Shown in pieces: positions 23,001 to 50,246 of a DNA stretch of 63,009 nt (position 1 is its first letter; the number at the start of each line of letters is the position of its first letter). This DNA is from a virus. Its lineage: Duplodnaviria > Caudoviricetes. Below the pieces are notes generated by a model. It did not search any database and had not been told where the DNA came from. It saw nothing but the letters and a program-made list of their open reading frames with translations. Where the stretch lies: the IMG/VR virus record IMGVR_UViG_3300042514_001623, positions 1 to 63,009 of that record; one strand, written 5' to 3'. A program made the translations under genes and the position numbers.

Positions 23001-24990
23001 TGGCGTGCGCCAGTTCTTCGGCATGTACGAGAGCCGCAGCGAGCGCGCCAAGGCCGTGCGCCTGATGCGTGAGAACTTCCCCGATGCCGACATCAAGCAG
23101 GGCACCACCTCGGAGGAGGAGTTCAAGCTGTTCGCGGGTGTCACGCCCGAGACGCTGGAACTGTTCGGCGACAAGCTGGGCCTGAGCGACGAAGTGGCCA
23201 AGAGCAGCCTGTTCCAGAAGTGGCTGCAGGTGGCCAAGGCCAACCGATCGGGCATGAAGCGGCTGATCCACCGCAAGGGCGTGCCTGGCTTCAGCGAGGA
23301 CGTGGGCCGCGTGCTGGCCTCGTTCATCTACTCCAACGCGCGCCAGGCTTCCAGCAACCTGCACGCTGGCGCGGCCGAGCGGGCCATCGAGGAGATCCCG
23401 CAGAGCAAGGGCCAGTTGAAGGACTACGCCGTTCGCCTGAACGAGTACGTCAAGAACCCGCAGGAGGAGGCGCAGGCGCTGCGCTCCGTGCTGTTCGCGC
23501 AGTTCCTGGGCGGCAGCATCGCTTCGGCCATCGTCAACGCCACGCAGCCGTTCATGGTGACGCTGCCCTACCTGACCCAGTTCGGCGGGGTGGGCAAGGC
23601 CGGTGCGCGCATGGCCGCGGCGCTGAAAGACGTGGGCCGGCGCGAGTTCCCCAAGGACAAGGGCCTGACGGAGGCGCTGAACCGCGCGGCCGAGGACGGC
23701 ATCGTGGCGCCGCAGGAGGTGTTCTTCCTGCAGGCGCAGGCCAGCGGCAAGGCACAGCTTCAGTCCGGCGACGGCACGCTGCTGGGCAACGCCGGGGCGC
23801 GCGTGAACAACGGGATCTCGCGCCTGACCCTGGCGTGGGGAAAGCCGTTCAGCTTCGCGGAGTTGTTCAACCGGCGCCTGACCTTCATCGCGGCGTACCG
23901 CACGGCGCAAGAGGAGGGGATGTCGCGGCCCTACGAGTTCGCCATCAAGGCGGTGCGCGAGACGCAGTTCCTCTACAACAAGGGCAACCGGCCGCGCTGG
24001 GCCCGTGGGGCGGTGGGTGCGCTGCTGTTCACGTTCAAGACCTACAGCGTCAGCATGGTGGAGCACCTGGCGCGCAACGCCAAGACCCCGCAGGGCCGCC
24101 GCGCGCTGCTGGCCGCGCTGGTGATGATCGCCATGATGGCGGGCCTGGATGGCCTGCCGTTCATGGAAGACGTGGAGGACGTGATCGACGGCGTGATGCA
24201 GCGGGTGTTCGACAAGAATTTCTCGCTGCGCTTTGAGCGCAACCAGTGGATCGCGCGGCAACTGATCGCCCTGGTGGGTGAAGACCTGGGCCAGCCGGTG
24301 GCCGATTTCCTGGCCAAGGGCGTCACCGGCCTGCCCGGGGCGCCGTTCGACGTGTCCGGCCGCCTGGGCCTGCACAACATCATCCCGGGCACTGGCGTGT
24401 TCCTGAAGAAGGACAGCTACGCCCGCGACGTGGCCGACGTGGCCGGCGCGGCTGGCAGTTTCGTGGCGCGGATGTTCGACGCCATCGGCAAGGCCGCCGA
24501 GGGCCGCATGAAGGAGGCCCTGGTGCTGGCTTCGCCCATCGCCGTGCAGAACGCGGTGAAGGGCGGGATGATGGCGCAGACCGGCATGTACCCGGACACG
24601 CGCGAGAACATGGTGGTCAAGACCACCCTGGCCGATGCCGGGTTCAAGGCCGCGGGCTTCCAGCCCAAGGTGGTGCAGAAGGCGCAGCAGGTGGCCGGGG
24701 AGAGCGCCCGAGCCGTGGCCCTGGTGCGCCAGGTGGAAACAGAGATCGTCACCGCCATGGCGAAAGCCCTGGCCCGTTCCGATCCCGCCGGATTGCGCGA
24801 GGCGCTGGAACGGCTAGATTCGTGGAACCGGAAGAACCCCGGCTCGCCCATTCGCATCACCCCGAGCCAAGTGCGCGAGCGCTTGAAGAGCATGACCACC
24901 GAGAAGTCTGTTCGCCTGTTGAAGTCTGCGCCGCGCGAGATGCGGCCGGGCTTGGCCGAGCGCTTCCAGCAGCTGGAGCCGCAGGAATGA
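11047..24990 (+). CDS. Giant DarB-like polyvalent virion protein: N6-adenine methyltransferase + SNF2-type helicase + HExxH domain + PLxRFG domain (4647 aa)
   Basis: LEPGSGVG (~16280), NPPF (~16477), VGAGKT (~18400), DEAH (18892), QREGRIIRQGN (~20120), HELRH (~21637), PLSRFG (~22954). Confidence 0.85.
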   Translation: MTMTTFKVRGPDGQILNIRGPADATDEELQAVAAANWTPSRVGTERGRATLAQAKPLSYLPDPLEPASPNATADMLNAGVDAGAPQTEAGGSVLDRPRDPLAQGFRAASQQQRTLADTAATAKNDRFLSARASEATPMQKQAMALDESGAGGIKRGAIAGGAQLGQIGLGAMRLVGDLTGSETIEGIAAAGSRAAEGTSMASMQGLEGGEKLAAQVTSSIINSAPALALGVIGGPALTTLFAQSTLAEYNAGRNAGFDPGESLGRGIIMGIGEAAGERFGLSEQIALLKGAAKGLPQGEVARLFGNMLVKEIPGEQLTTLVQTLADKIGPAALNPDATLADYLEAAADTLKVTVGQSLVMGGGPAAVTTARNTFRAADQAAAGPEAQAAQEINAAAASFEGFFKPADTAAMPTQARAESVKRFDELAAAFGLDPKAAARVREQAGAMPTAQVPGFLARVTQALNKRGFFRQPVDETGVQELRTRIEPALAPAGTNAATERPAVEQPDVAGTAGVAAGAGDAGAPAAVGSGVAVGPLPDADGGVQPAAAATVPSSGEAGPAGDGGAAGPALTLLPIDADAALANMERQSAQDYADTKAAGRMPEQPDFEPRESTDILNPKGAAWAAKVGANKRLKELGDGYRLARVSTGWVIKPVAPVNTIDTASAPAGPIAQAPGSQSASGAPEAAGADALINAAVEPQAPESSATTQPRPQTLNLDAVSDKGLLNASLADAELLASVAKTEPAGNKLLGSLNVETKRLVLSAVSRLVNDREIFKRVVELVPVEVMNVLTGNSSGADGGSDYRAVLKNLAAVDAENPIPVLVDAADTFVRVTANAAAEKLAMSNGAGAAAPDRDSALSAVEVDAGSLPPSELAGRVAEENARWRSRDAGVSSEDGSTALATLDDRQVNSPTRIDELGSSSDATNDGPPTVRASRASAKPQGVAAEQSPAEAPAPADAAPPPGYEAIEHTTGKGKVLRGVVVKGIKGEDALKLDGGTFKKDGGYFVREKHWGRLPPVVAGNDRGESAPADAPASASTDAQPAAAVDKAKKDQKAEFDRIRAEIAAKKAPAPVDTSPGRAQKPAESEQVAPSLGKALQTAMGKSGWAAEDKGEGNTFWSKRQGQERYTARWDREQGRVEVTALEAGGVETQIAFFEATDAQDAARRADKAVADDLAEIAARNGSASSPAPEKTTPATEVSSSPAEPEVTSSQQPLSDAEQKELDRMLGLNASVGFKDMGGHWMAEATGNSLRMPVRARGSSKDAARRNLLQAVRQAREEQQATAAPSAAAAPTPRPVQTTASRVADARAIGAQAYAEDADRVPPQAFTTAEKRAWLDGYDNAPPRASAAPAPAPAAADPTLDDELNDALGKLGDVLGDVFGAKKNITGPQYGAADLLPALSKVVELLVRKGFKSFAQAAGKAAALMRANEKTAAHVDAITPRQWKAAYNAIAEGTEGTDTEEALSAMTAEQVKAIVSPAIPPAAESAPAPEAQNQAKEPANGNAPRQLDRPGQRALEGAPADPVQAPDAGGRTGQGAEGSGSADGDRVPGAEGAGAGRPGGVGDGAGALPVPGRGAGRKPRGEPKPRVRRDARPDADPGLFGDGAGPDPQGLTAPNVAPPAPPAFTPTDFEIADDLALGEGGQKAKYRGNVEAIRLLRDLEATGRTATPAEQRVLARYVGWGGIAQAFDAGNKDWTREYAELKELLTPEEWATANESTQYAHYTSREIIGGIYEALARMGFTGGKILEPGSGVGNFVGLMPAGLRTSSRFTGVEREAIAVGIAKQLYPRQNIQRADFTEFIGNDGFFDLAIGNPPFARNPLTDKSGRKHLTGLSVHNYFFAKAVDMLREGGILAQVVSNSFLDAKRDTARRYIADRTEFLGAIRLPNNAFAKNANTEVTTDIVFLRKLPESEWGSRSGKENRDRWLDTQNITDPNGGDDIPVNRYFAENPEMMLGQMGRYGTMYGPGQPALVAKPGQDTAALLRAAIARLPEGVYTPPAVANTAAMGDAAIVALRNPKVQEGGHYVEGDKLYRRLQDVAGEARAVELTPDTQWTEKTKLGEEGFARIKALAGLRQTLRDLLAAELADAKDIEALRTRLNTEYDAYAKRHGLINDRPSARVFDDDPDYPLLASLEHGFTPGIGAAAARKMGVKPMLATAKKGPIFKARVIEKRTAPTRASSPADALNISMAERGRIDAAYIGELLGISGEEALRDMSQGAKPLLFMDPASNEYVLRDAYLSGNVRAKLAQARQAGMMANARALEEVQPPDVSAGEISVRVGSPWVPTPVYEAFARHLFGDGTSAKFIYVKANSSFMDAISGESDVASSATWGTPSYPGPQILTSLMNNREIKVMFKDADGSLKVDREATDAANQKATEIKQAFSDWVFSDPERADVLTKAYNEANNNYVTRAFDGGYMQFPGKVPDSIIKFRRHQRNAIARIVQDRTALLDHVVGAGKTFTVISAAMELKRTGLANKPLIMVPNHLVKQWAADFYRLYPGANILTATKKDFEKTNRRRFLAKIATGNWDAVIMAHSSFGFIKPAPEFEAQFNEQQVKNVMDTIDAVNAGDADEGTKKRTVKQLAALKERLENRIDALRQKPIDALLDFKEIGVDQLFVDEAHLFKNLMFTTKMQNVRGLGDSAGSQRAYDLFIKTNQLYAQNGRGQGVVFATGTPVSNSLAEMYHMMRYLMPQALQEGGFESFDAWANTFASVEQVWMQKISANGFKADNRMSTFVNTHELLKMFDQVADTVTMDDIKKAYAEENDGREFPLPKLKTGRRQPVSLDKSQAQEDYMAAVAARAQAIEGKRTNEKGMDNALKIMGDARKAAMDIRLVDVTITEREKGGRIDRAADEIAARYRQYGDVKGTQLVFSDLGTPIKHAREEMKEWEALQARIQKGVDPETVTAANFGNEAAMKVVEDAEDAQREMDEKGADWLDAVKAALRGFSVYDDLRAALVERGIPDSEIAFIHDYNTDDQKLSLFRKMNAGDMRVLIGSTPKLGAGTNVQDRLVALHHLDVPWKPSDVEQREGRIIRQGNKLMDTVPGFEVEILAYVTKDTLDMRMWQVQETKLKMINQLRTRQISREIDNAFEDMEMSAGEMQAAATGNMDLLKEIQLRTDVKKLEQAKRSFDATRNDLVSRRRRADEAVATLPAKIARAEKMAEASKAYTDAQKAQAERFSVTVNGKAYTDAREAGAVLQAFVDAKQFTKKGTDIVLTPEQYQAMDEDERSASNGWQERPVPLKVEMDGKTYTARAALGEAFADLRGDVNDAPLWQVDGQTYIRRTKAAAAIAQRVADSMAEMTEAEVGRIGPFTVTVEGQPPSAYATGTTGLEVVIRAPGGVEASTTLNFKDIASEDDARKAATGVINAAMSLASGGQQQVLWLRSDLERQQRVLADLATAKVAADFPQQDKLEAARAAHKEVLARLAAKPEQPAAPEADEAAGDTALSRGAGRGVAMADAEAARDALLRAMPKAPRITLLERVDQAPASLLSKISSAGASADVEGAFHEGEVFIFPGNIDSLERLQFVMAHHELRHYGLRSLMPNQNRRGPLLLAIYNTNPEIRRQADDKMAAGLAGSKVLAVEEALADMPVEQMQALKGGPRLLAALRDVLRKLAEVFRSLGWVRVADALEPATWTDADVVALVRRAEAVSRTGGPLFRVGDTAFSRSPSVATKALTAALSKPGAALRDVRLPAGYVVGDWFGNSLGRLHWWHKTVGTPYNLAERERSFRPVFESIQNFMDDISHYATEAANLAPSILPKLESITDILKAPLPPADVKALAAPVFEGTLGWGRDLDGKPVRMVDLEAKAAQLSAEDKAQEMLRRRLLNPRVLKMWQGLPLEQFEAAVETRYQNEVLKPGVVWSDGELRTMFGLSPRQIALYREFRSATDKSLDDLTITTMLRVGGEEVADLREQVLAEPDLMTAAELIRDRLFDLAEQQPENADAMNARGNGIIDIADRVEDLKDRGYAPLSRFGQYTLDVVTPDGVRQFFGMYESRSERAKAVRLMRENFPDADIKQGTTSEEEFKLFAGVTPETLELFGDKLGLSDEVAKSSLFQKWLQVAKANRSGMKRLIHRKGVPGFSEDVGRVLASFIYSNARQASSNLHAGAAERAIEEIPQSKGQLKDYAVRLNEYVKNPQEEAQALRSVLFAQFLGGSIASAIVNATQPFMVTLPYLTQFGGVGKAGARMAAALKDVGRREFPKDKGLTEALNRAAEDGIVAPQEVFFLQAQASGKAQLQSGDGTLLGNAGARVNNGISRLTLAWGKPFSFAELFNRRLTFIAAYRTAQEEGMSRPYEFAIKAVRETQFLYNKGNRPRWARGAVGALLFTFKTYSVSMVEHLARNAKTPQGRRALLAALVMIAMMAGLDGLPFMEDVEDVIDGVMQRVFDKNFSLRFERNQWIARQLIALVGEDLGQPVADFLAKGVTGLPGAPFDVSGRLGLHNIIPGTGVFLKKDSYARDVADVAGAAGSFVARMFDAIGKAAEGRMKEALVLASPIAVQNAVKGGMMAQTGMYPDTRENMVVKTTLADAGFKAAGFQPKVVQKAQQVAGESARAVALVRQVETEIVTAMAKALARSDPAGLREALERLDSWNRKNPGSPIRITPSQVRERLKSMTTEKSVRLLKSAPREMRPGLAERFQQLEPQE
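12551..12757 (+). CDS. Putative overprinted small ORF in +1 frame of the giant gene (68 aa from CTG, or 50 aa from ATG 12605)
   Basis: +1 frame uses CTG/GAG/CCG codons (WQELPEWLLEPVMQGHLLLWEAAWLWDHCL...) while the main frame switches to GCT/GGA; GGAGAGG at 12540 and GGAG at 12595. Confidence 0.5.
   Translation: MSNSLTWQELPEWLLEPVMQGHLLLWEAAWLWDHCLMQTEEFSPLPPQLFPAAEKLALLEMEALPGLH
13156..13764 (-). CDS. HNH homing endonuclease (Zn-finger + HNH + HTH), nested antisense inside the giant gene
   Basis: CxxC...FC...C repeats, GYRV...EHR, VHHLDGDKLNNALENL; GGAGA RBS 6 nt before TTG. Confidence 0.85.
   Translation of the reverse strand: MPIVQCSQCGAAVLRTDSRIARTPSGVFFCNTSCQFAWRQRACVHFNCAQCGVAVRRSRAGTIGHRKLFCSSVCRDTNKRVGSVNEDGYRVFSVNGRQVLEHRAVVAAAIGPAAIAGKDVHHLDGDKLNNALENLAVVDKSAHGREHKPLSFDIERAKQLVASGLSLGNAGKQLGVSKRCVEKAFVRYGVQIECLRPRLRRR
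13831..13859 (-). promoter_or_regulatory. Putative sigma70 promoter for the nested HNH gene
   Basis: Minus strand TTTGCG/TTGCGC - 16/17 nt - TACAGT, ~65 nt upstream of the HNH start. Confidence 0.4.
15542..15877 (+). CDS. Overprinted ORF in +1 frame of the giant gene (111 aa; TnpV-like)
   Basis: AAGGAG 7 nt before ATG; protein-like HWKEHQPTRYKRLMQAGEL...AWEMVRERYLFP; main frame here is low-complexity G/A/P/R. Confidence 0.65.
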   Translation: MEMHHANWIAQANEHWKEHQPTRYKRLMQAGELGKALKEAAAQTATEFQALKEQGLDALAAWEMVRERYLFPAEEPGASPAESPSQGYGAMRDLTQTLGSLGMEPDPIRKD

Positions 24991-28449: not shown

Positions 28450-29766
28450 CTATGCAGCGCGCCCCTTCGTGCCCTTGGGCTCCCCGGCCGCACTGGTTCG
28501 AGTCCAATCGCGCCTACCAACATCCGGCCCCGTCTTCTCCTCGGAAGACGGGGTTTTTTGTTGCCCGGACGCCAGGGCCTGGGGAGATTCCAGGGGGATT
28601 TCCTGCCCGGTCATGGCCGCCGCCAGGCGCTGCCGTTCGCTGCCGCCGTCGTTTTCGGGAATCCAGCGCGCGTAGGTGTCCAGCAGCATCTTGACGCTGT
28701 GCCCGGCCTGCGCCGCGATGTACCCGGGCTTGATGCCCCGCATCAGCGCCACCGTGCAGTAGGTGTGCCGGGTGCAGTACGGCCGGCGCCGGCGCACGCC
28801 CAGCAGCTTCAGCGTGGGAACCCAGTAGTGCTCGCGCTGGCTGCGTTCATCGTGCCAGGGCCTGCCCGTCACCGGGTTCTCGAAGATGTCCACCTCGCGG
28901 CCCTCGGTGTCGCGCTTCATGGCGGTGTAGGGCTTCATGGCCTTCAGCGCGTCCAGGGCCGGCGGCACGAGATCCACGTCGCGCACGGTGTGCGTCTTCG
29001 ATCCCTCGCGCTCGGAACCCATGAACGTGCGCACGCGCTGCACCCGGGCCGTGGCCGCGTTCCAGTCGATGTCTTCCCAGCGCAGGGCGATGATCTCCTC
29101 GGGCCGCATGCCGGTGAAGAACGCAAAGGCGAAGTAGGCCCACACGCGGATGTCGTAGCGCTTGCGCATGCTGGACAGGATGGCGTCGCGCTCCGCGATG
29201 GTCAGCGGGTCGGGCAGCTTCTTGACCACGCGGCGGTTCGTGATGTCGGCCAGCGGGTTCTCCAGCGCCTTCGGGCCGCGGAACTCCATGGCGAAGACCC
29301 CCCGCAGCGGGATCATGTAGTTGTTGAACAACCGCGCCGAGGACCACGGGTAGCTGCCGATCTTCACGCTCAGCACCTTGTGGGTCAGTTCGGCCAGCGG
29401 CTTGTCGGCGCCCAGCACCTGCTTCCACACCTTCAGGGCGTTGCGGTACTGCGCGCGGGTGGCCGGTGCGAGCTCGCCCTGGGCCTTCAGCCAGTCGTCG
29501 GCCAGCGCGCCGAAGGTCAGCGCAGCGGCGGGCGCGGCGGCGGCGCGCGGCGAGTCGGGGAAGAACTCGGCCAGGTCGAACGTGCCGGCCGCGATGCGCG
29601 CCCGGATGGCCGCGATGACGCGGTGGGCGTGCTTGATGTTGGGCCCCGTGGGCAACATCGGCACGCCGTTGGTGGTGAGGGTTTCGCGCATGCTCACGCC
29701 GGCGACGGTGAACGCCAGCCGGATGCTCTTGGCGCGGATCTCTACGCCGCTGCCGCCACGGCCCAT
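28450..29766 (-). CDS. int: Tyrosine integrase with N-terminal arm-binding domain
   Basis: TGMRPEE, K(T), YCTRHTY, AGHS..M....Y catalytic pattern. Confidence 0.93.
   Translation of the reverse strand: MGRGGSGVEIRAKSIRLAFTVAGVSMRETLTTNGVPMLPTGPNIKHAHRVIAAIRARIAAGTFDLAEFFPDSPRAAAAPAAALTFGALADDWLKAQGELAPATRAQYRNALKVWKQVLGADKPLAELTHKVLSVKIGSYPWSSARLFNNYMIPLRGVFAMEFRGPKALENPLADITNRRVVKKLPDPLTIAERDAILSSMRKRYDIRVWAYFAFAFFTGMRPEEIIALRWEDIDWNAATARVQRVRTFMGSEREGSKTHTVRDVDLVPPALDALKAMKPYTAMKRDTEGREVDIFENPVTGRPWHDERSQREHYWVPTLKLLGVRRRRPYCTRHTYCTVALMRGIKPGYIAAQAGHSVKMLLDTYARWIPENDGGSERQRLAAAMTGQEIPLESPQALASGQQKTPSSEEKTGPDVGRRDWTRTSAAGEPKGTKGRAA
28494..28519 (+). other. attP core: 3' end (T-arm, acceptor strand, CCA) of a tRNA, probably tRNA-Val(GAC)
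   Basis: TGGTTCGAGTCCAATCGCGCCTACCA; no tRNA 5' half upstream; adjacent to and inside int. Confidence 0.8.
28528..28559 (+). terminator. Intrinsic terminator after the attP tRNA fragment
   Basis: CCCCGTCTTC-N6-GAAGACGGGG-T6. Confidence 0.8.
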
Positions 29767-40045: not shown

Positions 40046-40088
40046 TTACCGAAATCGGTTGACTGCTGATTACCTGATTCGGTAAACT
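40046..40088 (+). promoter_or_regulatory. OL-like promoter with two operators
   Basis: TTACCG-AAAT-CGGTTG (40046-61), TTACCT-GATT-CGGTAA (40070-85); TTGACT-18-TAAACT. Confidence 0.78.
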
Positions 40089-41167: not shown

Positions 41168-42028
41168 GTGAACGCTGTCACCGAGATTAAACACGAGGCC
41201 AGCGCGCTGAGCGCTGCGCCAGAAGCCCCCGCCACCCGCGCGCTGAGCGTGATCGAGCACGCCGTGCGCAGCGGCGCCACGCCCGACCAATTGGAGCGCC
41301 TGCTGGACCTGCAGGTGCGCGCCGACAACCACCAACTCGAACTGATGCGCGAGCGGCGCCGCATGGACGAGGAAGACCGCAAAGCCGCCGCGCTGCTGGC
41401 CTTCCGCCGCGACTTCGCCGCCTTCCGTGGCGAGAACATCATCATCCCCAAGAACGGCTTTGCAGACCGCGCCAAGGCGGGCAGTTTCAACTTCGCCCGG
41501 TTCGGCGACGTGATGCAGATGTTGTCCCCCGCGCTGTCCAAGCACGGGTTCAGCATCCGCCACAACGAGGTGTTCGGGTCCAAGCCCTGGGTGACCGATG
41601 GCGTGGAAAGCACGGTGCCGTGGGTCTACGTCACCTGCTACCTCGAACACCGCGACGGACACAGCGAGCGCCTGGACCTTGAAGGCCCGCCGGGTGATGC
41701 AACGGCGAATACGCCGGCGCAGAACATGCAACTCACGGGCAGCTACCTGAAGCGTCAGGCCACGCTGGCCATCACCGGCACGGCCACGGCCGACGAGGAC
41801 GACGAGAACAAGCTGAAGGGCGAAGGCAAGGCCGGCGCCCAGCAGCCGGACGCTGATGCGCTGGAGGCCCTGCTGGCCACCGGCCGCGATGAGTCCCTGA
41901 AGGGCATGGCCGCGCTGACCGCGTGGTGGGGCTCGCTGAACGCCCGGCAACGCGCCGACCTGAGCCCCGACTTCCCCGGCCTGCGCAAGGCCGCCCAGGC
42001 CGCCGATCAGCAGGGGGGTGCCAAGTGA
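41168..42028 (+). CDS. ERF-family ssDNA annealing protein
   Basis: P.LSKHG, V...L.H..GHSE, Q.....SY.KR.....ITG.A..DEDD. Confidence 0.85.
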   Translation: MNAVTEIKHEASALSAAPEAPATRALSVIEHAVRSGATPDQLERLLDLQVRADNHQLELMRERRRMDEEDRKAAALLAFRRDFAAFRGENIIIPKNGFADRAKAGSFNFARFGDVMQMLSPALSKHGFSIRHNEVFGSKPWVTDGVESTVPWVYVTCYLEHRDGHSERLDLEGPPGDATANTPAQNMQLTGSYLKRQATLAITGTATADEDDENKLKGEGKAGAQQPDADALEALLATGRDESLKGMAALTAWWGSLNARQRADLSPDFPGLRKAAQAADQQGGAK

Positions 42029-42921
42029 GCAACCTCATTGTTCGCTGCAGCAGCATCGGCCGGCTGATGGCCGCGCCGACGAGCGCTGACCTTGACCCGG
42101 CCTTGGTGGACGACGAGGTGCGCCGCATCCTGGCGCTGAAGAAGCGCACCGACGAGGAAACCTCGGTGCTGGACGAGGTGCGCCGCAAGAGCCTGAGCGC
42201 TGGCGGCAAGACGCACGTTCGGGAACTGGTGCGCGAAGCGGTGTACGGCTTTGAGCCGGCCGAGATCGCCACGCGGCCCATCCTGAAGGGCAGGGCGGTT
42301 GAGCAGGCCTGCATCGAGATGCTGGCCCGCCTGACCGGCCGCCCGCTGGTGAAGAACACCGAGCGCCGCACCAATGGCCTGATCTCGGGCGAGTGCGACA
42401 TCTTCGACGCCCCGCTGCGCCACGGCCGCGACGTGAAGGCCCCGTACAGCATGGAGAGCATGCCGATCGTGCTGGCCGACTGCTACGACAGTGGCTACGA
42501 GTGGCAGATGCAGGGCTATGAAATCCTGTGGGACGCCGACACCTGGAGCGTGGACTACGTGCTGGTGGACACGCCCGAGGAACTGATCGGGCTGGAGCCG
42601 GCGGCGCTGCACTACGTGAGCCACATCCCCGAGGCGCTGCGCTGGACGACGTGGACCGTCAAGCGCGACCGCGCGCTGCAGTCGCTGATCGAGGACAAGG
42701 TGCTGGCTGCGCGCCGGTACTACCGCCAGGTGCTCAACGAGTTCGACAGAACCCACGGAGTGCGCACTGACAAAACCGACGAAACCCCTATTTCGTCAGT
42801 TTCGTCAGTTGCCCCCGAGGGGGTTCCCGACAAATCGCGCCCCGACATGGACGCCCCCTGGGACTTGCCCACGGCGCCCGTGGAGCGCCCGCGCGCTGCG
42901 CTGGCACCGGCTGACTTCTGA
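42025..42921 (+). CDS. Lambda-exonuclease/YqaJ-like exonuclease
   Basis: RCSSIG.LM, KG...E, GECDI, DVK, YEWQMQGY. Confidence 0.8.
   Translation: MSNLIVRCSSIGRLMAAPTSADLDPALVDDEVRRILALKKRTDEETSVLDEVRRKSLSAGGKTHVRELVREAVYGFEPAEIATRPILKGRAVEQACIEMLARLTGRPLVKNTERRTNGLISGECDIFDAPLRHGRDVKAPYSMESMPIVLADCYDSGYEWQMQGYEILWDADTWSVDYVLVDTPEELIGLEPAALHYVSHIPEALRWTTWTVKRDRALQSLIEDKVLAARRYYRQVLNEFDRTHGVRTDKTDETPISSVSSVAPEGVPDKSRPDMDAPWDLPTAPVERPRAALAPADF
42766..42809. repeat. Imperfect 19-bp inverted repeat built from CTGACGAAA units
   Basis: ACTGACAAAACCGACGAAA-CCCCTA-TTTCGTCAGTTTCGTCAGT. Confidence 0.8.
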
Positions 42922-42948
42922 CCCTTCCCCAACGCCAGAAAGGCACCT

Positions 42949-43305
42949 ATGAGCGACAAACCCGACACCACCCGCGCCGCCACCAACGTCCCCGAGTTCT
43001 TCGGCGAATTGGACGGCGGCCAGTTCGAGCACATGACTTCCGTTGCCCTGTCCGAAGTGGCCGCGGCGGTGGTCGACCGCGAGAAGAAGGGCGAGGTGAC
43101 GATCACCATGAAGTTCGAGCACATCAAGGGCACGCCCCAGGTGCGCATCGAGCACACCACCAAGTTCACGCGCCCGACGATGAGCGGCAAGCGCAGCGAA
43201 GAAGCCAAGGGCGCCACCGTGATGCACGTCGGCCGCTACGGCAAGTTGTCGATCACGCAGGCCTCGCTGGTGCCCAAGGCCGAGCAGACCCGCATCCCCG
43301 ACTGA
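42949..43305 (+). CDS. Conserved phage protein, usual partner of DUF2303 (YfdP-like)
   Basis: F..ELDGG.F......ALSEVA.AVV...KKG.V; adjacent to DUF2303 gene. Confidence 0.7.
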   Translation: MSDKPDTTRAATNVPEFFGELDGGQFEHMTSVALSEVAAAVVDREKKGEVTITMKFEHIKGTPQVRIEHTTKFTRPTMSGKRSEEAKGATVMHVGRYGKLSITQASLVPKAEQTRIPD

Positions 43306-43330
43306 ACACCCCAACACCCGAGACACACCC

Positions 43331-44146
43331 ATGTTCACCAAAGACGCCATCGAGAAACTGTCCGAAGCCGAAGCCATCAGCGCAGCCAACAGGGAGGTGA
43401 CGGCTTCAAACGTCGTTGCCCTGCCGAGCGACTTCGAGTTGCGCGACCTGGAGGCCAAGGCCCCGCACCGCCGCCGCGCCCGCGGCACGATGACCACCAG
43501 CACGGTGGCCGACTTCGCGGGCTACACCGAAACCCACGCCGAAGACGGCGCTACCGTGTTCGTGAACCAAGACGACATGAGCGCCACGGCTGTGCTGAAC
43601 CTGGGCACGCCGCTGGAGCCCGGCCATGCCGACAACCGCGCGAAGCTGCAGCCCAAGAAGACCGCCGCCTACATCGCGCTGCAGGCAGTGGCGAACGGCC
43701 GCGCCATCACCCAGCAGGCCGTGGCTGAGTTCATGGAGGACTGGCCCGGTGAACTGGAGTTCTTCAACGCGCAGTCCGACAAGTTGACCCCGAGCCAAGC
43801 CATCACGGCAGTGCGCAGGATCACCATTGAAGGCCTGAACCGCGTGGAGAGCGCCACGCAGCAGTTGAGCGCCGAGCGCAGCACCTTCGAGCGCATCGAG
43901 GCCAAGGGCACGGACCTGATTCCGACCACGATCTACTTCCGCTGCTGCCCCTACGTGGACTTCGCATCGCGCCTGTTCGTGCTGCGCCTGGGCATCGTCA
44001 CTGGCGCCAAAGACCCGGCCATCACGTTGCGCGTGCAGAACGCGGAGAAGCACGCCGAGGAGATGGCCGCCGAGCTCGCCAGCCTGGTGCGCGGTGCGGT
44101 GAAGGACACGCCGGTGCTGCTGGGCAGCTACAGCCCGAGCGCATGA
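43331..44146 (+). CDS. DUF2303/YfdQ-family protein
   Basis: LE...P.R.R.RG, A.AVLNLGT...PGHADN.A, Q...AEF.EDW. Confidence 0.82.
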   Translation: MFTKDAIEKLSEAEAISAANREVTASNVVALPSDFELRDLEAKAPHRRRARGTMTTSTVADFAGYTETHAEDGATVFVNQDDMSATAVLNLGTPLEPGHADNRAKLQPKKTAAYIALQAVANGRAITQQAVAEFMEDWPGELEFFNAQSDKLTPSQAITAVRRITIEGLNRVESATQQLSAERSTFERIEAKGTDLIPTTIYFRCCPYVDFASRLFVLRLGIVTGAKDPAITLRVQNAEKHAEEMAAELASLVRGAVKDTPVLLGSYSPSA

Positions 44147-46861: not shown

Positions 46862-47058
46862 GCACACCACGCGACGACCGCCCCGCATACATGGCCGCCA
46901 TGCTGAGCGGCAACCACGTTCAGGCGCTGGCGATCGAGCGCCGCCACGGCTTGGACGGTTACCCGCCCGACCTGGTGAGCGTGGGCCTCAAGGCTGCTGC
47001 TGAAGGCCGCGATGCGCTGGAAGCCGTCGAAGCCCACATTGAGGAGAGCGCATCATGA
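46858..47058 (+). CDS. Hypothetical protein
   Basis: AGGAG RBS, GTGA overlap. Confidence 0.65.
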   Translation: MSTPRDDRPAYMAAMLSGNHVQALAIERRHGLDGYPPDLVSVGLKAAAEGRDALEAVEAHIEESAS

Positions 47059-47804
47059 GCACCAAGACCGAGGCCGGGCCGGTGGCGCCGGTTTGCTATT
47101 GCCCTCCTGAGCTGCTGCTGAAGCTAGACGACGAGGATTATCGCGCTGGATGGATGGCGCGCGTGAAAAGCGCGCCGAATGCCGTGTTCAGCGTCCCCCT
47201 CTACGCCCACCCGCCCGCACAAGAGCATCCCAACCTAGCGTGCAAGTCAGTGCAAAAGCGCCTTGCTACGCAGTGGGGCTACGTGCCCGCACAAGAGCAG
47301 CCGGCGCCCGGTGGAATGCCGAACGGCTACGAGGCCATGACTACCTGCTACAAGCGGTACGTCTCGCCTGCGCAGTACGCCGCCTTCTCGCCCGGGGTGC
47401 AGAAGTGGTATCGGCCTTTCTGGACTGCCACCCACCCCACGCCAGCCGAGCGCGCAGAGCAGCCACAAGCCGAGCAGGAACTGCGCGAGCTGCTGGCTGT
47501 GCGTGTGGCCGGTGCGCTGCTGTACGCCGACGATGGCGAATTGCAGGACGCCAGCGAACTGCCGGCCATCGACTTCAAGCGGGACGCCCCGGGCGAGATT
47601 GCTCGCAAGCTGACAGACCGGGGCCTGAAGCGCCTGACGCGCGCAGAGCAGCCCCCGCGCGATGCCGTGCAGCAGGGGCTGACGGATGAGCAGATTGATG
47701 CACTGTGGCGCCAGGCCGCATCCGCAGACGGATTCACTACGGCGCAGTTCGTGCGCGAGTTCGCCCGCGCCATCGAGCGCGCCACCCTGAAAGGCCAGCC
47801 ATGA
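47055..47804 (+). CDS. Mosaic hypothetical protein (249 aa)
   Basis: PLYAHP, LYADDGELQD, LTDEQI...FARAIE phage modules. Confidence 0.7.
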   Translation: MSTKTEAGPVAPVCYCPPELLLKLDDEDYRAGWMARVKSAPNAVFSVPLYAHPPAQEHPNLACKSVQKRLATQWGYVPAQEQPAPGGMPNGYEAMTTCYKRYVSPAQYAAFSPGVQKWYRPFWTATHPTPAERAEQPQAEQELRELLAVRVAGALLYADDGELQDASELPAIDFKRDAPGEIARKLTDRGLKRLTRAEQPPRDAVQQGLTDEQIDALWRQAASADGFTTAQFVREFARAIERATLKGQP

Positions 47805-48103
47805 GCGGCGGGGACAGTGCGGGTCGGGGGGTGTTGAGCGAGGGGCTAGGCCTGGCTCCGGAGCGCCTGAGCGAAGACCGCGCACGCACGCTTATTGAGG
47901 CATGGCTGGACGAGCACGCCCAAGGATACCCGGACTACTCGCTGTGCGAAGACGGCGACGATGCCTGGGCCTTCTGGATCGCCGAGAAGGACACCACCAG
48001 TTACCTGCATTCCGATGGCCGCGTGGAGTGGTACGGCACCGGGTGGCCGGAGATCTACCAGTACGACGGCGACTCCGGCCTGTGGTCGTCGGCAAGGGCC
48101 TAA
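47801..48103 (+). CDS. Cassette A ORF, hypothetical (100 aa)
   Basis: Reads across a degenerate R' (GCTAGGC 47845); stop in GCCTAAC. Confidence 0.65.
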   Translation: MSGGDSAGRGVLSEGLGLAPERLSEDRARTLIEAWLDEHAQGYPDYSLCEDGDDAWAFWIAEKDTTSYLHSDGRVEWYGTGWPEIYQYDGDSGLWSSARA

Positions 48104-48116
48104 CGGACAGTTAGGC
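48098..48116 (+). repeat. Collapsed mini-attC (R''-5 nt-R')
   Basis: GCCTAAC-GGACA-GTTAGGC. Confidence 0.65.
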
Positions 48117-48137
48117 ATCACTGCAACGAGGAACACG

Positions 48138-48338
48138 ATGAAGAAACTACAACTTACCCCGTGGTTCAAGGCGGCGACACAGAAGCCAGTCCGTCGCGGC
48201 TGGTACGACTTCTATGACGGACTTTGGGGCCAGCATGTGCGCGCCATGTGGAACGGCACCTACTGGGTTTGGCAGGAAGGCACCCGCATCGACCCATACC
48301 CGTGCGACAAGTGGCGCGGGGTTTCGGGTGATGCCTAA
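48138..48338 (+). CDS. Cassette B ORF, Trp-rich hypothetical (66 aa)
   Basis: GAGGA RBS; LTPWF...KPVR.G.Y...W.G..W...WRG; stop in GCCTAAC. Confidence 0.7.
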   Translation: MKKLQLTPWFKAATQKPVRRGWYDFYDGLWGQHVRAMWNGTYWVWQEGTRIDPYPCDKWRGVSGDA

Positions 48339-48441
48339 CGCGCGAGCTAACCGGCCCGCAGAGGGCCAGAGGAGTGACAGGTGAGCACAGACGATACGAG
48401 CCCCGCTACTGCGGGTCCGGTGGTTCAGCGCGGTGTTAGGC
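48333..48441 (+). repeat. attC-like site (109 bp)
   Basis: GCCTAAC...CCGGCCCGCAG / CTGCGGGTCCGG...GTTAGGC with bulged bases. Confidence 0.8.
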
Positions 48442-48743
48442 CCTGCGCGTGGTGGCGCGAGAGCATTTACGCGGAATGCTGGCCGTGCGTGACCGTAGAC
48501 GAAAAGGAGGCCGAGTTCTGGCGCTCCGAAGGGCTGACGGTTGTTGAGCTGGGTGACGTGGCCGCAGAACGCGCAGAGTCGGCGCGGCTTCGCCACCTCC
48601 TGAATCTGGCGCGCGACGACTACAACACTGCGGCGCAGCGGCTGCAAGACATTGGCGACTACGCGCACGACCACAGCACCGGCCCAGCAGTGCCGGATGC
48701 GCTGTGGGAAGTGTGCTCAATGGCCTACGGTTCAGGGGCCTAA
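48381..48743 (+). CDS. Cassette C ORF, hypothetical (120 aa), starting inside the upstream attC
   Basis: GAGGAG RBS and GTG in the attC loop; stop in GCCTAAC. Confidence 0.7.
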   Translation: MSTDDTSPATAGPVVQRGVRPCAWWRESIYAECWPCVTVDEKEAEFWRSEGLTVVELGDVAAERAESARLRHLLNLARDDYNTAAQRLQDIGDYAHDHSTGPAVPDALWEVCSMAYGSGA

Positions 48744-48860
48744 CGTTCGAGTTCACCCGGACTCCAACAGCGCGAGGATCACAAATTGAATGAGAAAGCC
48801 ACAAATTCCGATGAGAGCCGGCCCGCTGTTGGTGGTCCGGGGTGCAACGAGGGGTTAGGC
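48738..48860 (+). repeat. attC-like site (123 bp)
   Basis: GCCTAAC...CCCGGACTCCAACAGCG / CGCTGTTGGTGGTCCGGG...GTTAGGC. Confidence 0.8.
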
Positions 48861-49178
48861 CCGCTGCCAACCATCCGGCCCGGTGAAACAGACGCGGAGT
48901 TTGTGGCGCAGATTGAGGCCACGCACTGCCGGCCGCTGACGCCACCGGAGCGGATGCCGCAATACATCCGCGACGAGTTGCCTGATGAACTGGCAGCCCA
49001 TCGTTTGCAGGCGTGGGCAGATGCGCGCGTGGCCGCAGAGCGCGCGAGATTCCTGCGCCTCATTGCGCGGCACTGCGAAGACGCCTGCGTGGCCGCCGTA
49101 CTCGAAGACTCAGTGCGCCTCGGGTTGGATGTGGGGCCTAACGTCGGAAATCAGGCGGACCCGGAGGCGAAGCCGTAG
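48786..49178 (+). CDS. Cassette D ORF, hypothetical (130 aa), starting in one attC and ending in the next
   Basis: GAGGA RBS and TTG in the attC loop; reads through GCCTAAC at 49136. Confidence 0.6.
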   Translation: MNEKATNSDESRPAVGGPGCNEGLGPLPTIRPGETDAEFVAQIEATHCRPLTPPERMPQYIRDELPDELAAHRLQAWADARVAAERARFLRLIARHCEDACVAAVLEDSVRLGLDVGPNVGNQADPEAKP

Positions 49179-49205
49179 GGGCTCGCCTGCATTGACCAGT
49201 TAGGC
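49136..49205 (+). repeat. attC-like site (70 bp)
   Basis: GCCTAAC...CAGGCG..CCC...GGC-GAA-GCC...GGG..CGCCTG...GTTAGGC. Confidence 0.8.
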
Positions 49206-49233
49206 CACGGCTCCGAAGCGAAAGGACAAAAGC

Positions 49234-49515
49234 ATGCAAGCGTTGAGCGACCTGATAACTGCGGCAGTGCAACTGGCCGGCGCAGATGACACCGTGAGCC
49301 ACGGCGCGCGGCTGTGGCACAGCGAAGGCGGCCGGCGCTGCCCGCTTGGCTGGGAGGACTGCTCGCAGGCGGTGTACATGGACCTGAAGACCGGCGAGTA
49401 CGACTATGGCGATCCTGGCGGCCCTGGGCATGCGGACTGCGAACGCAACTGCGCTCACGGCATGTTGCCTGCGCCGGAAGACGAGAACGAAGGCCCGTAT
49501 GCCTTGGTGGCCTAA
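49234..49515 (+). CDS. Cassette E ORF, Cys/His-rich hypothetical (93 aa)
   Basis: AAGGA RBS; W.S.GGR.CP....CSQ.VY......YDYG..GGP...C; stop in GCCTAAC. Confidence 0.72.
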   Translation: MQALSDLITAAVQLAGADDTVSHGARLWHSEGGRRCPLGWEDCSQAVYMDLKTGEYDYGDPGGPGHADCERNCAHGMLPAPEDENEGPYALVA

Positions 49516-49614
49516 CGTTGGAGCTGAACGGGCACCAACGGCAGGCACAGATTAACCCGGAGCGCGCCACGGCAACCCTGCCGTTGGGGCTCCGATTCGA
49601 GCGACGAGTTAGGC
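49510..49614 (+). repeat. attC-like site (105 bp)
   Basis: GCCTAAC...CCAACGGCAGG / CCTGCCGTTGG...GTTAGGC. Confidence 0.8.
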
Positions 49615-49640
49615 CACGCTGTGGCCGGAGCGAGAAAACG

Positions 49641-49871
49641 ATGGCAAAGCGATTCACCAAGGCGGCACTTGTCGAACAACTGCGCGACCTTGCGGACAAC
49701 GTGCAGCAGACCCGCCACTTTGACGGCGGCAACGGCACCGCGCAGCTTCGCCCGCGCGGATGCGATGAAGCCACCCAAGCGCTGATTGATAAGGCTGTGG
49801 ACTATGGCCGCTGGCGCACGCTCCACAACTTGGCCGCGGACGTGGAGTGCGGGTGTATTGGCGTGGCCTAA
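49641..49871 (+). CDS. Cassette F ORF, hypothetical (76 aa)
   Basis: GGAG RBS; stop in GCCTAAC (49866-72). Confidence 0.68.
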   Translation: MAKRFTKAALVEQLRDLADNVQQTRHFDGGNGTAQLRPRGCDEATQALIDKAVDYGRWRTLHNLAADVECGCIGVA

Positions 49872-49880
49872 CCCGTAGAT

Positions 49881-50246
49881 ATGCCACCTTTCCAAAGTCC
49901 GCGCAGGCCCGCGAGCCGCTGGGCCGCATACAACGCAACGCCAGGCGCGCACAAGCGCCGGAGCGCCGCGCGTGAGGCCGCCAGCATTGCCGGCCCGGCC
50001 CCGGCATACCCGCCGCTGGCCCCGTTGCATGGGGATTGGCTGGGCGGGTCCATAAACGGCAAGACCGTCATCATGCGGCTGATGCGAGATCCGCAGCACC
50101 GTTCTGACCAGTGGGCGGGCGAGATCGACGGCGAGGCGGTGACGGACGCCGCCGGCCTGACGCGGCTGTGGGAACTGCTGAGCAAGCGCTGGCCCAAGGC
50201 GCCGAGCCGGCGCACGCTGGCTGGGTTGGGAAAGCGCGAAGGGTGA
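49881..50246 (+). CDS. Hypothetical protein (121 aa)
   Basis: ORF after the last R'' box. Confidence 0.5.
   Translation: MPPFQSPRRPASRWAAYNATPGAHKRRSAAREAASIAGPAPAYPPLAPLHGDWLGGSINGKTVIMRLMRDPQHRSDQWAGEIDGEAVTDAAGLTRLWELLSKRWPKAPSRRTLAGLGKREG

What the first reader, a model, noticed from the sequence alone, without database searches (positions are those of the whole stretch)
47845..49872. Integron-like attC cassette array inside a phage early region
Seen: six short ORFs (A-F) are separated by sites that begin GCCTAAC and end GTTAGGC (48098-116, 48333-441, 48738-860, 49136-205, 49510-614, plus a lone R'-like half at 47845 and a lone R'' at 49866). The sites share ends but have unrelated, self-complementary interiors with bulged bases. 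Five ORF stops are the TAA of GCCTAAC. Established: this is the RYYYAAC...GTTRRRY bottom-strand-hairpin architecture of integron attC sites. Inference: the phage builds or shuffles its accessory early genes as integron-type cassettes, transcribed from the phage early promoter at 40059 in place of Pc. The cargo looks like phage accessory genes, not typical resistance cassettes.
Basis: partly seen in the sequence, partly recalled or inferred. Interest (0 to 1): 0.92.

Follow-up and report, generated by a model that had tools for sequence, protein, structure and literature searches.

The report
Mirror-oriented integron cassette array in phage
A freshwater phage carries a row of small accessory genes separated by genuine integron recombination sites, but the genes sit on the opposite strand from those in bacterial integrons, an arrangement shared by many related uncultured phages, a few of which carry their own integron integrase.

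Summary
GCCTAAC occurs 11 times in the window (about 3 expected), and every copy lies in 48098-49872. It defines five GCCTAAC…GTTAGGC sites plus two half-sites between six small ORFs.

A covariance model built from intI-linked attC sites of Burkholderiales chromosomal integrons hits four sites at 40-64 bits. It does so only on the minus strand. So these are true members of that attC family, but inverted: the phage coding strand is the recombinogenic bottom strand.

The window is a complete 63 kb phage with no IntI, so the array is a CALIN. That kind of element was already published for phages (Qi et al. 2023).

What looks new:
- At least 120 IMG/VR contigs carry such sites, and the genes sit on the bottom-type strand in 120 of 137 called units. 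Bacterial arrays are 18:1 and 51:7 the other way.
- Site loops often hold the SD and start codon of the downstream gene (122 of 396 viral sites).
- Six IntI-positive phage contigs have the array upstream of, and co-directional with, an intI that lacks a LexA box.

Exchange between phages clusters at the sites, but not only at the IntI crossover point. Homologous recombination therefore probably also contributes.

The parts
47055..47804 (+). Backbone gene (249 aa) immediately upstream of the array.
   Evidence: The homologue in L002/L008 is 56% identical and lies directly before their array. There is no significant family match; the only Pfam hit (CMD) is below its cut-off, and PHROGs gave none.
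47801..47851 (+). Fixed leader or half-site. It holds the ATG of ORF A plus a remnant of a site 3' arm, ending in GCTAGGC at 47845-47851.
   Evidence: Its sequence is nearly identical in L002 up to …TGAGCGAGGGG(C/T)TAGGC and diverges immediately afterwards.
47801..48103 (+). ORF A (100 aa). Its stop is the TAA of GCCTAAC.
   Evidence: It is 54-56% identical at the protein level to ORFs in L002 and L123. No Pfam or PHROG match.
48098..48116 (.). Collapsed 19-bp site consisting of box, 5-nt loop and box.
   Evidence: It folds as a 7-bp stem. Model scores of 13.7 and 13.0 bits are not significant.
48138..48338 (+). ORF B (66 aa). It has its own SD (GAGGAA) after the mini-site, and its stop is the TAA of site 2.
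   Evidence: GC3 0.73. No family match.
48333..48441 (+). attC-family site 2, with the recombinogenic bottom strand on the plus strand. The loop holds AGAGGAG and the GTG start of ORF C in unpaired positions.
   Evidence: Model R1 scores 47.7 bits on the minus strand (canonical top) against 10.8 bits on the plus strand. Fold.
48381..48743 (+). ORF C (120 aa). It starts in the loop of site 2, and its stop is the TAA of site 3.
   Evidence: GC3 0.74.
48738..48860 (+). attC-family site 3. The loop holds GAGGA and the TTG start of ORF D.
   Evidence: R1 scores 61.7 bits on minus against 10.1 bits on plus.
48786..49178 (+). ORF D (130 aa). It starts in the loop of site 3 and stops at TAG inside site 4. 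It is internally mosaic.
   Evidence: Residues 49-88 are 97% identical to a segment in L003. Variant contigs diverge at 49044 in three runs.
49136..49205 (+). attC-family site 4, a short 70-bp site.
   Evidence: R1 scores 40.0 bits on minus against 13.9 bits on plus.
49234..49515 (+). ORF E (93 aa). It has its own SD after site 4, and its stop is the TAA of site 5.
   Evidence: It is 78-82% identical at the protein level to ORFs in L003, L004 and L033 arrays.
49510..49614 (+). attC-family site 5.
   Evidence: R1 scores 63.8 bits on minus against 14.9 bits on plus.
49641..49871 (+). ORF F (76 aa). Its stop is the TAA of the terminal box.
49866..49872 (+). Terminal lone GCCTAAC box, marking the boundary between array and backbone.
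   Evidence: Homology to L064 starts exactly at 49866 and runs 564 bp at 92%. Four other contigs have GCCTAAC or GCCCAAC plus 8 nt and ATG before the same backbone gene, with unrelated sequence upstream.
49881..50246 (+). Backbone gene (121 aa) in the position that intI occupies in the IntI-positive phages.
   Evidence: Homologues are 71-90% identical in L064, L115, L020 and L006. No family or atlas match.
40059..40088 (+). Promoter-like site upstream of the rightward operon that contains the array.
   Evidence: It matches 9 of 12 consensus positions. No terminator-like site lies inside the array. This is a consensus match only.
28450..29766 (-). Ordinary phage tyrosine integrase, not an integron integrase.
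   Evidence: It carries Arm-DNA-bind_2 and Phage_integrase domains and matches phrog_1. TIGR02249 scores 14.6 bits against a cut-off of 265.

Best explanation
Region 47801-49872 is a cluster of genuine integron attC sites with no integrase in the genome (a CALIN), in a complete temperate-type phage. The sites belong to the attC family of Burkholderiales sedentary chromosomal integrons.

The arrangement is mirrored. The phage coding strand is the strand that integron integrases fold and cleave (5'-GCCTAA|C). Each mobile unit would therefore be |C-site-gene-GCCTAA|: the site lies upstream of its gene, often supplies the gene's Shine-Dalgarno sequence, start codon and first residues from its loop and 3' arm, and the unit ends with the TAA stop.

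The array is a hotspot where related phages swap small accessory genes. In relatives these include counter-defence genes such as orphan DNA methyltransferases and Mom.

Shown here: family membership, polarity, conservation of the hairpin, unit-wise differences between phages, and a sharp array/backbone boundary at the box.

Inferred: exchange is catalysed partly by an IntI supplied in trans (by the host, or by a co-resident phage of the IntI-positive kind) and partly by homologous recombination between the conserved arms.
For: Enrichment and clustering of the boxes.

Family membership:
- The motif GCCTAACGTNNGAGCTAA is found in at least 120 bacterial contigs, mostly Burkholderiales.
- 5 of 5 array-bearing genomes tested have IntI at 426-460 bits (cut-off 265) on the same contig as the array.
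- Model R1, built from 58 of those attC sites, hits four window sites at 40-64 bits.

Polarity, by three criteria:
- 73 of 74 motif copies lie on intI's strand in the bacterial arrays.
- R1 scores 40-64 bits on the window's minus strand against 10-15 bits on the plus strand.
- Bulged G and T bases lie in the arm opposite the AAC triplet of the plus strand, which is the bottom-strand layout described by Nivina et al. 2016 (passages).

Gene orientation:
- Window units: 3 of 3 called are bottom-type.
- Unique viral units: 120 bottom-type against 17 top-type, with 58 not callable. 34 of 39 loci are bottom-majority.
- Bacterial arrays: 18:1 and 51:7 the other way.

SD plus start codon inside sites, reading outward: 122 of 396 viral sites against 6 of 396 in the opposite orientation, and 8 of 95 in intI-linked bacterial arrays.

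Hairpin conservation in 148 distinct viral sites: 92.2% of cells paired against 73.8% in shuffles, 29 of 37 pairs with compensatory changes, and 0 of 500 shuffles as high.

Exchange at the sites:
- L003 equals L004 plus one unit, and L002 and L003 share one site-plus-gene unit in different contexts.
- 15 of 21 informative breakpoints fall at the GCCTAA|C end.
- The backbone boundary lies exactly at 49866.
- In lake metagenome contigs, 8 of 9 listed distinct variant break positions lie within or at most 11 nt from sites.

IntI-positive phage contigs (6 of 6 examined) keep canonical site polarity relative to intI, with the genes co-directional with intI.

Cargo: 4 DNA methyltransferases, Mom and others among 148 representatives.
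Against: - No IntI is present in the window, nor in 110 of 117 distinct array-bearing viral records. Only 1 of 14 records rated at least 90% complete has one.
- The host is unknown. The best portal relatives in 301 Burkholderiales genomes are at most 38% identical, so the availability of IntI in trans is assumed, not shown.
- 6 of 21 breakpoints lie at the GTTAGGC end, where IntI acting on this strand should not cut. One site is a chimera with its breakpoint inside the loop.
- Metagenome variants also break at arm/loop boundaries (48354, 48411, 48848) and inside ORF D.
- Viral sites show little of the bottom-strand G·T wobble bias seen in bacterial sites: 543:431 against 291:44 and 1077:196. 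This suggests relaxed or different constraint.
- The covariation alignment was fitted to the model.
- Gene-strand calls rest on a GC3-GC2 statistic and leave many units uncalled.
- No recombination assay or expression data exist.
Confidence: 0.72

Rival explanations
1. The sites are inherited relics of an attC array and are no longer substrates of any integrase. They persist as short conserved repeats, and all shuffling is ordinary homologous or microhomology recombination between the roughly 18-nt conserved arms, for example by the phage's own exonuclease-linked recombination module.
For: - Breakpoints occur at both boxes, inside sites at arm/loop boundaries, and inside one loop leader.
- An exonuclease gene (41923-42921, phrog_5715) and a DUF2303 gene lie upstream in the same operon.
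- There is no IntI in the window or in most relatives.
- Strand-specific wobble bias is weak.
Against: - The hairpin is kept by compensatory changes in stems whose sequence differs from site to site, which sequence-homology recombination does not require.
- Bulged G and T bases are kept in the IntI-specific arm.
- Polarity is uniform within arrays.
- 15 of 21 breakpoints, and the array/backbone boundary, fall at the IntI crossover box.
- Some phages with the same architecture do encode IntI next to the array.
Confidence: 0.17
2. The hairpins work mainly at the RNA level. In the mRNA, which has the same sequence as the bottom strand, each hairpin would present the next gene's SD and start codon in its apical loop, couple its translation to termination at the UAA in the stem base, or set transcript stability. 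Recombination would be a by-product.
For: - SD plus start codon lies in the loop at 122 of 396 viral sites, and only in the coding orientation.
- In site 2 the SD and the GTG start fall in unpaired positions of the predicted fold.
- Stop codons lie in the stem base.
- The hairpin is conserved on the transcribed sequence.
Against: - About two thirds of viral sites, and 3 of the 5 window sites, have no start codon in the loop.
- G·U-type pairs are barely favoured on the coding strand (per-pair counts).
- The boxes, L-box layout and bulges are those of integrase substrates and are shared with intI-linked bacterial sites, where the mRNA is the other strand.
- This rival is compatible with the main explanation and does not replace it.
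Confidence: 0.08
3. These are canonical integron cassettes as the first reader drew them: each ORF followed by its own attC, with GCCTAAC as top-strand R'' and GTTAGGC as R', captured from a host integron.
For: The ORF-then-site order and the TAA-in-box stops look like classical cassettes.
Against: - The model scores 40-64 bits only on the opposite strand.
- The motif's strand relative to intI shows the opposite polarity, as does the position of the bulges.
- ORFs C and D start inside the preceding site.
- Only 7 of 261 viral cargo peptides match the sampled bacterial loci. All seven are in the mirror orientation and lie in loci with few sites.
Confidence: 0.02

Closest known systems
[quoted passage not shown] I read the abstract and sections 2.1 and 3.4.
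   Same: An array of attC sites between small genes in a phage without IntI. DNA methyltransferases are among the cargo. The authors showed that 5 of 6 phage attC sites tested recombine with attI1 under IntI1.
   Different: They found 17 CALINs in 10,705 cultured or deposited phage genomes and describe the gene direction as typical of bacterial arrays. Here the genes are on the bottom strand, site loops carry translation starts, the array sits at a conserved backbone position in a lineage, and at least 120 uncultured viral contigs carry the same site family. I could not see their supplementary tables (closed), which may hold orientation details.
Sedentary chromosomal integrons of Burkholderiales (Rubrivivax and relatives), as fetched here (L253-L257).
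   Same: The same attC family, with the same boxes, arm consensus and bulge layout. The window sites score up to 64 bits against a model built from them.
   Different: The bacterial sites are 126-132 nt and nearly uniform within a genome. Their genes lie on the top strand and diverge from intI. A LexA-box-like motif lies upstream of 4 of 5 intI genes. They show a strong bottom-strand G·T bias. The phage sites are 52-123 nt and heterogeneous, with genes on the bottom strand, and the cargo pool is essentially non-overlapping.
'Reverse integron' of Treponema denticola (passages in PMC4909258).
   Same: intI and the array genes point the same way.
   Different: From my recollection, not from any call, intI lies upstream of the Treponema array and the gene-to-attC relation is canonical, so it is intI that is flipped. 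In the IntI-positive phage contigs, intI keeps canonical polarity relative to the sites, lies downstream of the array, and it is the genes that are flipped.
Promoter-early stem-loop (PeSL) modules that flank shuffled genes in T4-type phages.
   Same: Short conserved stem-loop elements between small early or accessory genes that act as shuffling points and carry expression signals.
   Different: PeSLs are not integrase substrates and are unrelated in sequence. The resemblance is functional only.

Membership tests
attC site (integron cassette recombination site) | Terminal inverse core boxes RYYYAAC … GTTRRRY that are complementary to each other. | tested here: met
   GCCTAAC and GTTAGGC bound all five sites.
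attC site (integron cassette recombination site) | An imperfect hairpin with a second (L) box pair and extrahelical bases on the arm opposite the AAC triplet of the recombined strand. | tested here: met
   Folds with bulges. The extra G and T lie in the 3' arm of the plus strand. The rule is taken from Nivina et al. 2016. It holds for the four long sites but not for the 19-bp site.
attC site (integron cassette recombination site) | A match to an attC covariance model. | tested here: met
   IntegronFinder's general model was not available. The family-specific model R1, built from 58 intI-linked sites, gives 63.8, 61.7, 47.7 and 40.0 bits (E 2e-13 to 1e-7). The 19-bp site is not significant.
attC site (integron cassette recombination site) | Recombined by an integron integrase as a folded bottom strand. 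| not testable with these tools
   This needs a suicide-conjugation or in-vitro assay.
Complete integron | An intI gene (TIGR02249-type, with the IntI-specific domain) next to the array. | tested here: not met
   The best score in the window is 14.6 bits against a cut-off of 265, at an ordinary phage integrase 20 kb away.
Complete integron | An attI site and a Pc promoter at the integrase-proximal end. | tested here: inconclusive
   The integrase-proximal end by site polarity is the lone box at 49866, followed 8 nt later by a 121-aa gene. It lacks the …TCAATTCG… stretch seen before intI in three IntI-positive phage contigs. The only promoter-like site is 7.7 kb upstream at the other end.
CALIN (cluster of attC sites lacking integrase) | At least two attC sites close together with no intI in the replicon. 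| tested here: met
   Four model-supported sites lie within 1.3 kb, in a complete record with terminal repeats and no IntI.
Canonical gene cassette | The ORF lies on the top strand, upstream of its own attC. | tested here: not met
   The ORFs lie on the bottom-type strand. Two of them start inside the preceding site.
Mirror integron array (the class proposed here from IMG/VR contigs) | attC-family sites with genes on the bottom strand, and, where intI is present, the array upstream of and co-directional with it. | tested here: met
   The window meets the gene-strand criterion. The intI criterion cannot apply to it. 6 of 6 IntI-positive contigs show the geometry.

The most novel reading that the evidence does not exclude
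These phages run a phage-adapted 'mirror integron'. Cassettes are coded on the recombinogenic strand, so each attC doubles as the 5' leader and translation start of its own gene, and the unit ends in its own stop codon. New units enter at a box at the promoter-distal end of an early operon. Where intI is present, it is the last gene of that operon and lacks LexA control, so it would be switched on by infection rather than by SOS. Host and phage cassette pools share the same sites but are mutually silent if exchanged. The window phage would be an integrase-less member that relies on IntI in trans to reshuffle counter-defence genes.
Probability: 0.4. Interest if true: 0.88.

Novelty: new variant of a known kind. 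Interest (0 to 1): 0.78.

Why it matters
Integrons are the classic bacterial device for stockpiling and reshuffling genes, and recent work shows that chromosomal integrons store anti-phage defences. If phages keep a mirror-image version of the same device, built on the same site family but with its own gene pool, its own expression logic and sometimes its own integrase, then both sides of the arms race would be using the same recombination chemistry.

This would also:
- give a concrete, testable source of small unknown phage genes that are likely counter-defence factors;
- explain one route of phage mosaicism;
- show that attC strand polarity, so far tied to Pc-driven expression, can be used the other way round.

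The sites and integrases are short and easy to clone, so the idea can be tested directly with the standard attC × attI and attC × attC assays.

Tried and rejected
- A nucleotide search of the region against 50,697 phage records found nothing.
- Protein searches with a tail-fibre-like gene and the portal found only distant cultured relatives. The best was Achromobacter phage CF418P1 at 38.6% portal identity.
- The portal search of 301 Burkholderiales genomes found 6 genomes with matches of at most 38% identity, so no host was identified. That search used a stricter first look and may have missed matches.
- ORFs A-F, the 249-aa gene and the 121-aa gene have no significant family matches; the only hit was a below-cut-off CMD match for the 249-aa gene. 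ESM Atlas look-ups of the 121-aa gene and ORF E gave no usable hit.
- No window backbone gene from 38.6-57.2 kb has a clear homologue in the six IntI-positive contigs, apart from one 34% match. The idea that the window lineage arose by a precise deletion of attI and intI could therefore not be tested.
- MITE or REP-type elements were rejected because the loops are unrelated between sites while the stems covary.
- Intrinsic terminators were rejected because no terminator-like site falls inside the array.
- ORF-length counts (frames of at least 50 codons ending at the box TAA) were too noisy in this GC-rich DNA to call strands: 225 against 177 of 396. I replaced them with a GC3-GC2 statistic.
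- Read laying returned contigs only, so no depth, strand or circular-molecule evidence could be drawn. Parts without cover are not interpreted.
Supplementary files of papers were closed and not requested.
Full report
**1. What is there**

The window is a complete 63,009-bp virus record with direct terminal repeats. Its genes include:
- small terminase, portal and an internal virion protein;
- a 4,647-aa ORF;
- a helicase;
- an ordinary arm-type tyrosine integrase on the minus strand;
- an exonuclease and a DUF2303 gene.

GCCTAAC and its complement occur 11 times against 2.99 expected, and every copy lies in 48098-49872. They bound five sites of 19, 109, 123, 70 and 105 bp, plus a lone GCCTAAC at 49866. 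A degenerate GCTAGGC at 47845 is preceded by the family's conserved arm.

Six plus-strand ORFs lie between the sites. Five stop at the TAA of GCCTAAC. ORF D stops at a TAG inside site 4. The four of these ORFs measured have GC3 of 0.72-0.78, lower than most backbone genes at 0.85-0.94. None has a Pfam or PHROG match.

**2. The sites are real attC sites of a known bacterial family**

The arms next to the boxes follow a consensus. That arm motif occurs in at least 120 bacterial contigs, mostly Burkholderiales such as Rubrivivax, often in long periodic arrays.

All 5 array-bearing genomes tested have a bona fide IntI (426-460 bits, cut-off 265) on the same contig as the array.

I built a covariance model from 58 of 84 eligible (100-140 nt) distinct intI-linked sites. 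On the whole window with filters off, it hits sites 5, 3, 2 and 4 at 63.8, 61.7, 47.7 and 40.0 bits. The next best hit scores 19.7 bits. The 19-bp site is not significant.

**3. Polarity is inverted relative to the genes**

Three independent criteria agree:
- In the five bacterial integrons, 73 of 74 copies of the arm motif lie on intI's strand, which is the canonical bottom strand. In the phage that motif is on the coding strand.
- The model, built in canonical top-strand orientation, scores the window sites only on the minus strand. The plus strand gives 10-15 bits.
- The bulged G and T bases lie in the 3' arm of the plus strand, opposite the arm with the AAC triplet. Nivina et al. 2016 describe this as the bottom-strand layout (passages).

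So the GCCTAAC at each stop codon is the bottom-strand R' box, whose AA|C is the integrase crossover point. The unit an integrase would move is therefore |C-site-gene-GCCTAA|. This explains why ORFs C and D can start inside the preceding site. In site 2 the SD (AGAGGAG) and the GTG start fall in unpaired loop positions of the predicted fold.

**4. This is a class, not a one-off**

The arm motif occurs in at least 120 IMG/VR contigs (capped). The model finds 309 sites at E ≤ 1e-3 in 100 of those loci. Polarity is uniform within a locus in all but 7 of the 123 viral loci (regex finder).

| Measure | Viral arrays | intI-linked bacterial arrays | Other bacterial motif loci |
|---|---|---|---|
| Genes on bottom-type vs top-type strand (not callable) | 120 vs 17 (58) | 1 vs 18 (53) | 7 vs 51 (182) |
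| SD plus start inside the site, coding vs opposite orientation | 122 vs 6 of 396 | 8 vs 1 of 95 | 21 vs 6 of 418 |

Of the 39 viral loci with at least two called units, 34 are bottom-majority.

The hairpin is maintained in the viral sites: 92.2% of cells are paired against 73.8% in shuffles and at most 44% when partners are slid. 29 of 37 pairs have compensatory changes. The caveat is that this alignment was fitted to the model.

The viral cargo is diverse, with 255 ORFs in 214 clusters. It barely overlaps the sampled bacterial loci: 7 of 261 peptides match, all in mirror orientation and in loci with few sites. Where the cargo can be named, it is phage-type: DNA methyltransferases, Mom, HNH endonuclease, dNMP phosphatase and RNA ligase. 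137 of 148 representatives have no Pfam match.

**5. Phages with their own integrase show the same mirror geometry**

Among 117 distinct array-bearing viral records (120 handles), 7 have an IntI above the cut-off. Only 1 of the 14 records rated at least 90% complete has one.

In all six IntI-positive records that I examined, site polarity relative to intI is canonical. The array genes, however, are on intI's strand and the array lies upstream of intI. The three of these contigs that I scanned carry phage genes: primase, ParB, serine integrase, exonuclease VIII, BstA, tail fibre and helicase-primase.

In the three junctions inspected, the last gene ends in GCCTAAC or GCCCAAC, followed by …TCAATTCG… and then intI 50-70 nt later. 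One junction has a direct repeat, as attI sites do.

A CTGT-N8-ACAG motif lies upstream of 4 of 5 bacterial intI genes and 0 of 6 phage intI genes.

Phage IntIs are 47-56% identical to the bacterial ones. The window shares no backbone genes with these contigs, so the architecture occurs in unrelated phages.

**6. How units move**

Evidence from related contigs:
- L003 equals L004 plus exactly one gene and one site.
- L002 and L003 share one site-plus-gene unit, with the site 100% and the gene 99.3% identical, in different contexts.
- Among shared genes with differing context, 15 breakpoints fall at the GCCTAA|C end of a site and 6 at the GTTAGGC end. One site is a chimera broken inside a conserved loop leader.
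- The array/backbone boundary is exact. Homology with L064 starts at 49866, and four further contigs have the box plus 8 nt and ATG before the same backbone gene, with unrelated sequence upstream.

Evidence from four lake-metagenome runs (contigs only):
- Variants diverge at 49143 and 49512 (5' box), at 48862 and 49625 (at or just after the 3' box), at 48354, 48411 and 48848 (arm/loop boundaries) and at 49044 (inside ORF D).
- One contig continues from F's box into a different complete site.
- Ten further loose ends were not shown by the tool.

The sites are therefore exchange hotspots, but not only at the integrase crossover point. The weak G·T strand bias of viral sites (543:431, against 291:44 and 1077:196 in bacteria) also points to relaxed integrase-type constraint. 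My reading is a mixture: integrase-type exchange supplied in trans, plus homologous recombination between the conserved arms. The phage's exonuclease module may contribute to the latter.

**7. What is known and what is new**

CALINs in phages, with methyltransferase cargo and with sites that IntI1 can recombine, were published by Qi et al. 2023: 17 CALINs in 10,705 genomes (abstract and sections 2.1 and 3.4 read). The bare finding is therefore a new member of a known kind.

I found no description of any of the following:
- the mirror gene polarity;
- loop-embedded translation starts;
- the array-then-intI geometry without a LexA box;
- the size of this uncultured freshwater group.

The searches were made, from which I read listings and the passages. 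Supplements were closed, and the library omits most subscription journals.

The Treponema 'reverse integron' also has intI co-directional with its cassettes. As far as I recall, it is intI that is flipped there, not the genes.

**8. Limits**

- The host is not identified.
- There are no expression or recombination data.
- Site statistics outside searches use a simple regex finder that allows one mismatch.
- Both collection scans were capped, so frequencies are unknown.
- IMG/VR contigs can include misbinned host DNA.

Noticed in passing
window 11047-24990 (+): A single 4,647-aa ORF with GC3 of 0.87 sits between virion genes. It is presumably a giant virion-associated protein.
   Followed up: no
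window 47297 joined to 48930; L003 4646-4849: Contigs in 3 of 4 laid runs join 47297 (inside the 249-aa gene) to 48930 (inside ORF D). L003 and L004 hold a gene in which segments 93% and 97% identical to those two window genes are adjacent. This is a shared protein module unrelated to the sites.
   Followed up: partly
L092 1-121, L100 343-468, L096 3486-3611, L073 2016-2141, L086 4577-4702, L033 10870-10995, L053 11784-11906, L012 11857-11982, L068 7336-7461, L065 643-772: Ten viral arrays each contain one full-length (about 126 nt) bacterial-type attC scoring 89-116 bits, among the shorter phage-type sites (35-69 bits) and with the same polarity. This could be a trace of exchange with host integrons.
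   Followed up: no
L002 7659-8715: Between two sites lies a roughly 1 kb insert with several small ORFs and an AT-rich stretch that looks like a promoter by eye. It is a multi-gene unit, possibly with its own promoter.
   Followed up: no
window 47677-47800 (-): A weak model hit (19.7 bits, E 0.009) lies inside the 3' end of the 249-aa gene, next to the half-site at 47801-47851. It may be the decayed other arm of a terminal site.
   Followed up: no
window 50242 onward: In run X4, one contig has a site 3' arm ending in GTTAGGC immediately before window position 50242. In some variants, therefore, a site also lies downstream of the 121-aa boundary gene.
   Followed up: no
window 41923-44146 (+): An exonuclease (phrog_5715) and a DUF2303 protein lie in the same rightward operon, 4-6 kb upstream of the array. 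This may be a phage recombination module.
   Followed up: partly
L254, L255, L256, L257 upstream of intI: CTGT-N8-ACAG motifs lie 102-352 nt upstream of the IntI match in 4 of 5 Burkholderiales integrons, consistent with SOS control. None is present in the six phage intI regions.
   Followed up: yes
L272 1-1326 (-): In one IntI-positive phage contig, a large serine-integrase-like gene (phrog_95) lies directly downstream of intI, so the element carries two recombinases side by side.
   Followed up: no
viral sites overall: Viral sites have a median length of 94 nt, against 128-129 nt for bacterial sites. They almost lack the bottom-strand G·T wobble bias of the bacterial sites.
   Followed up: partly
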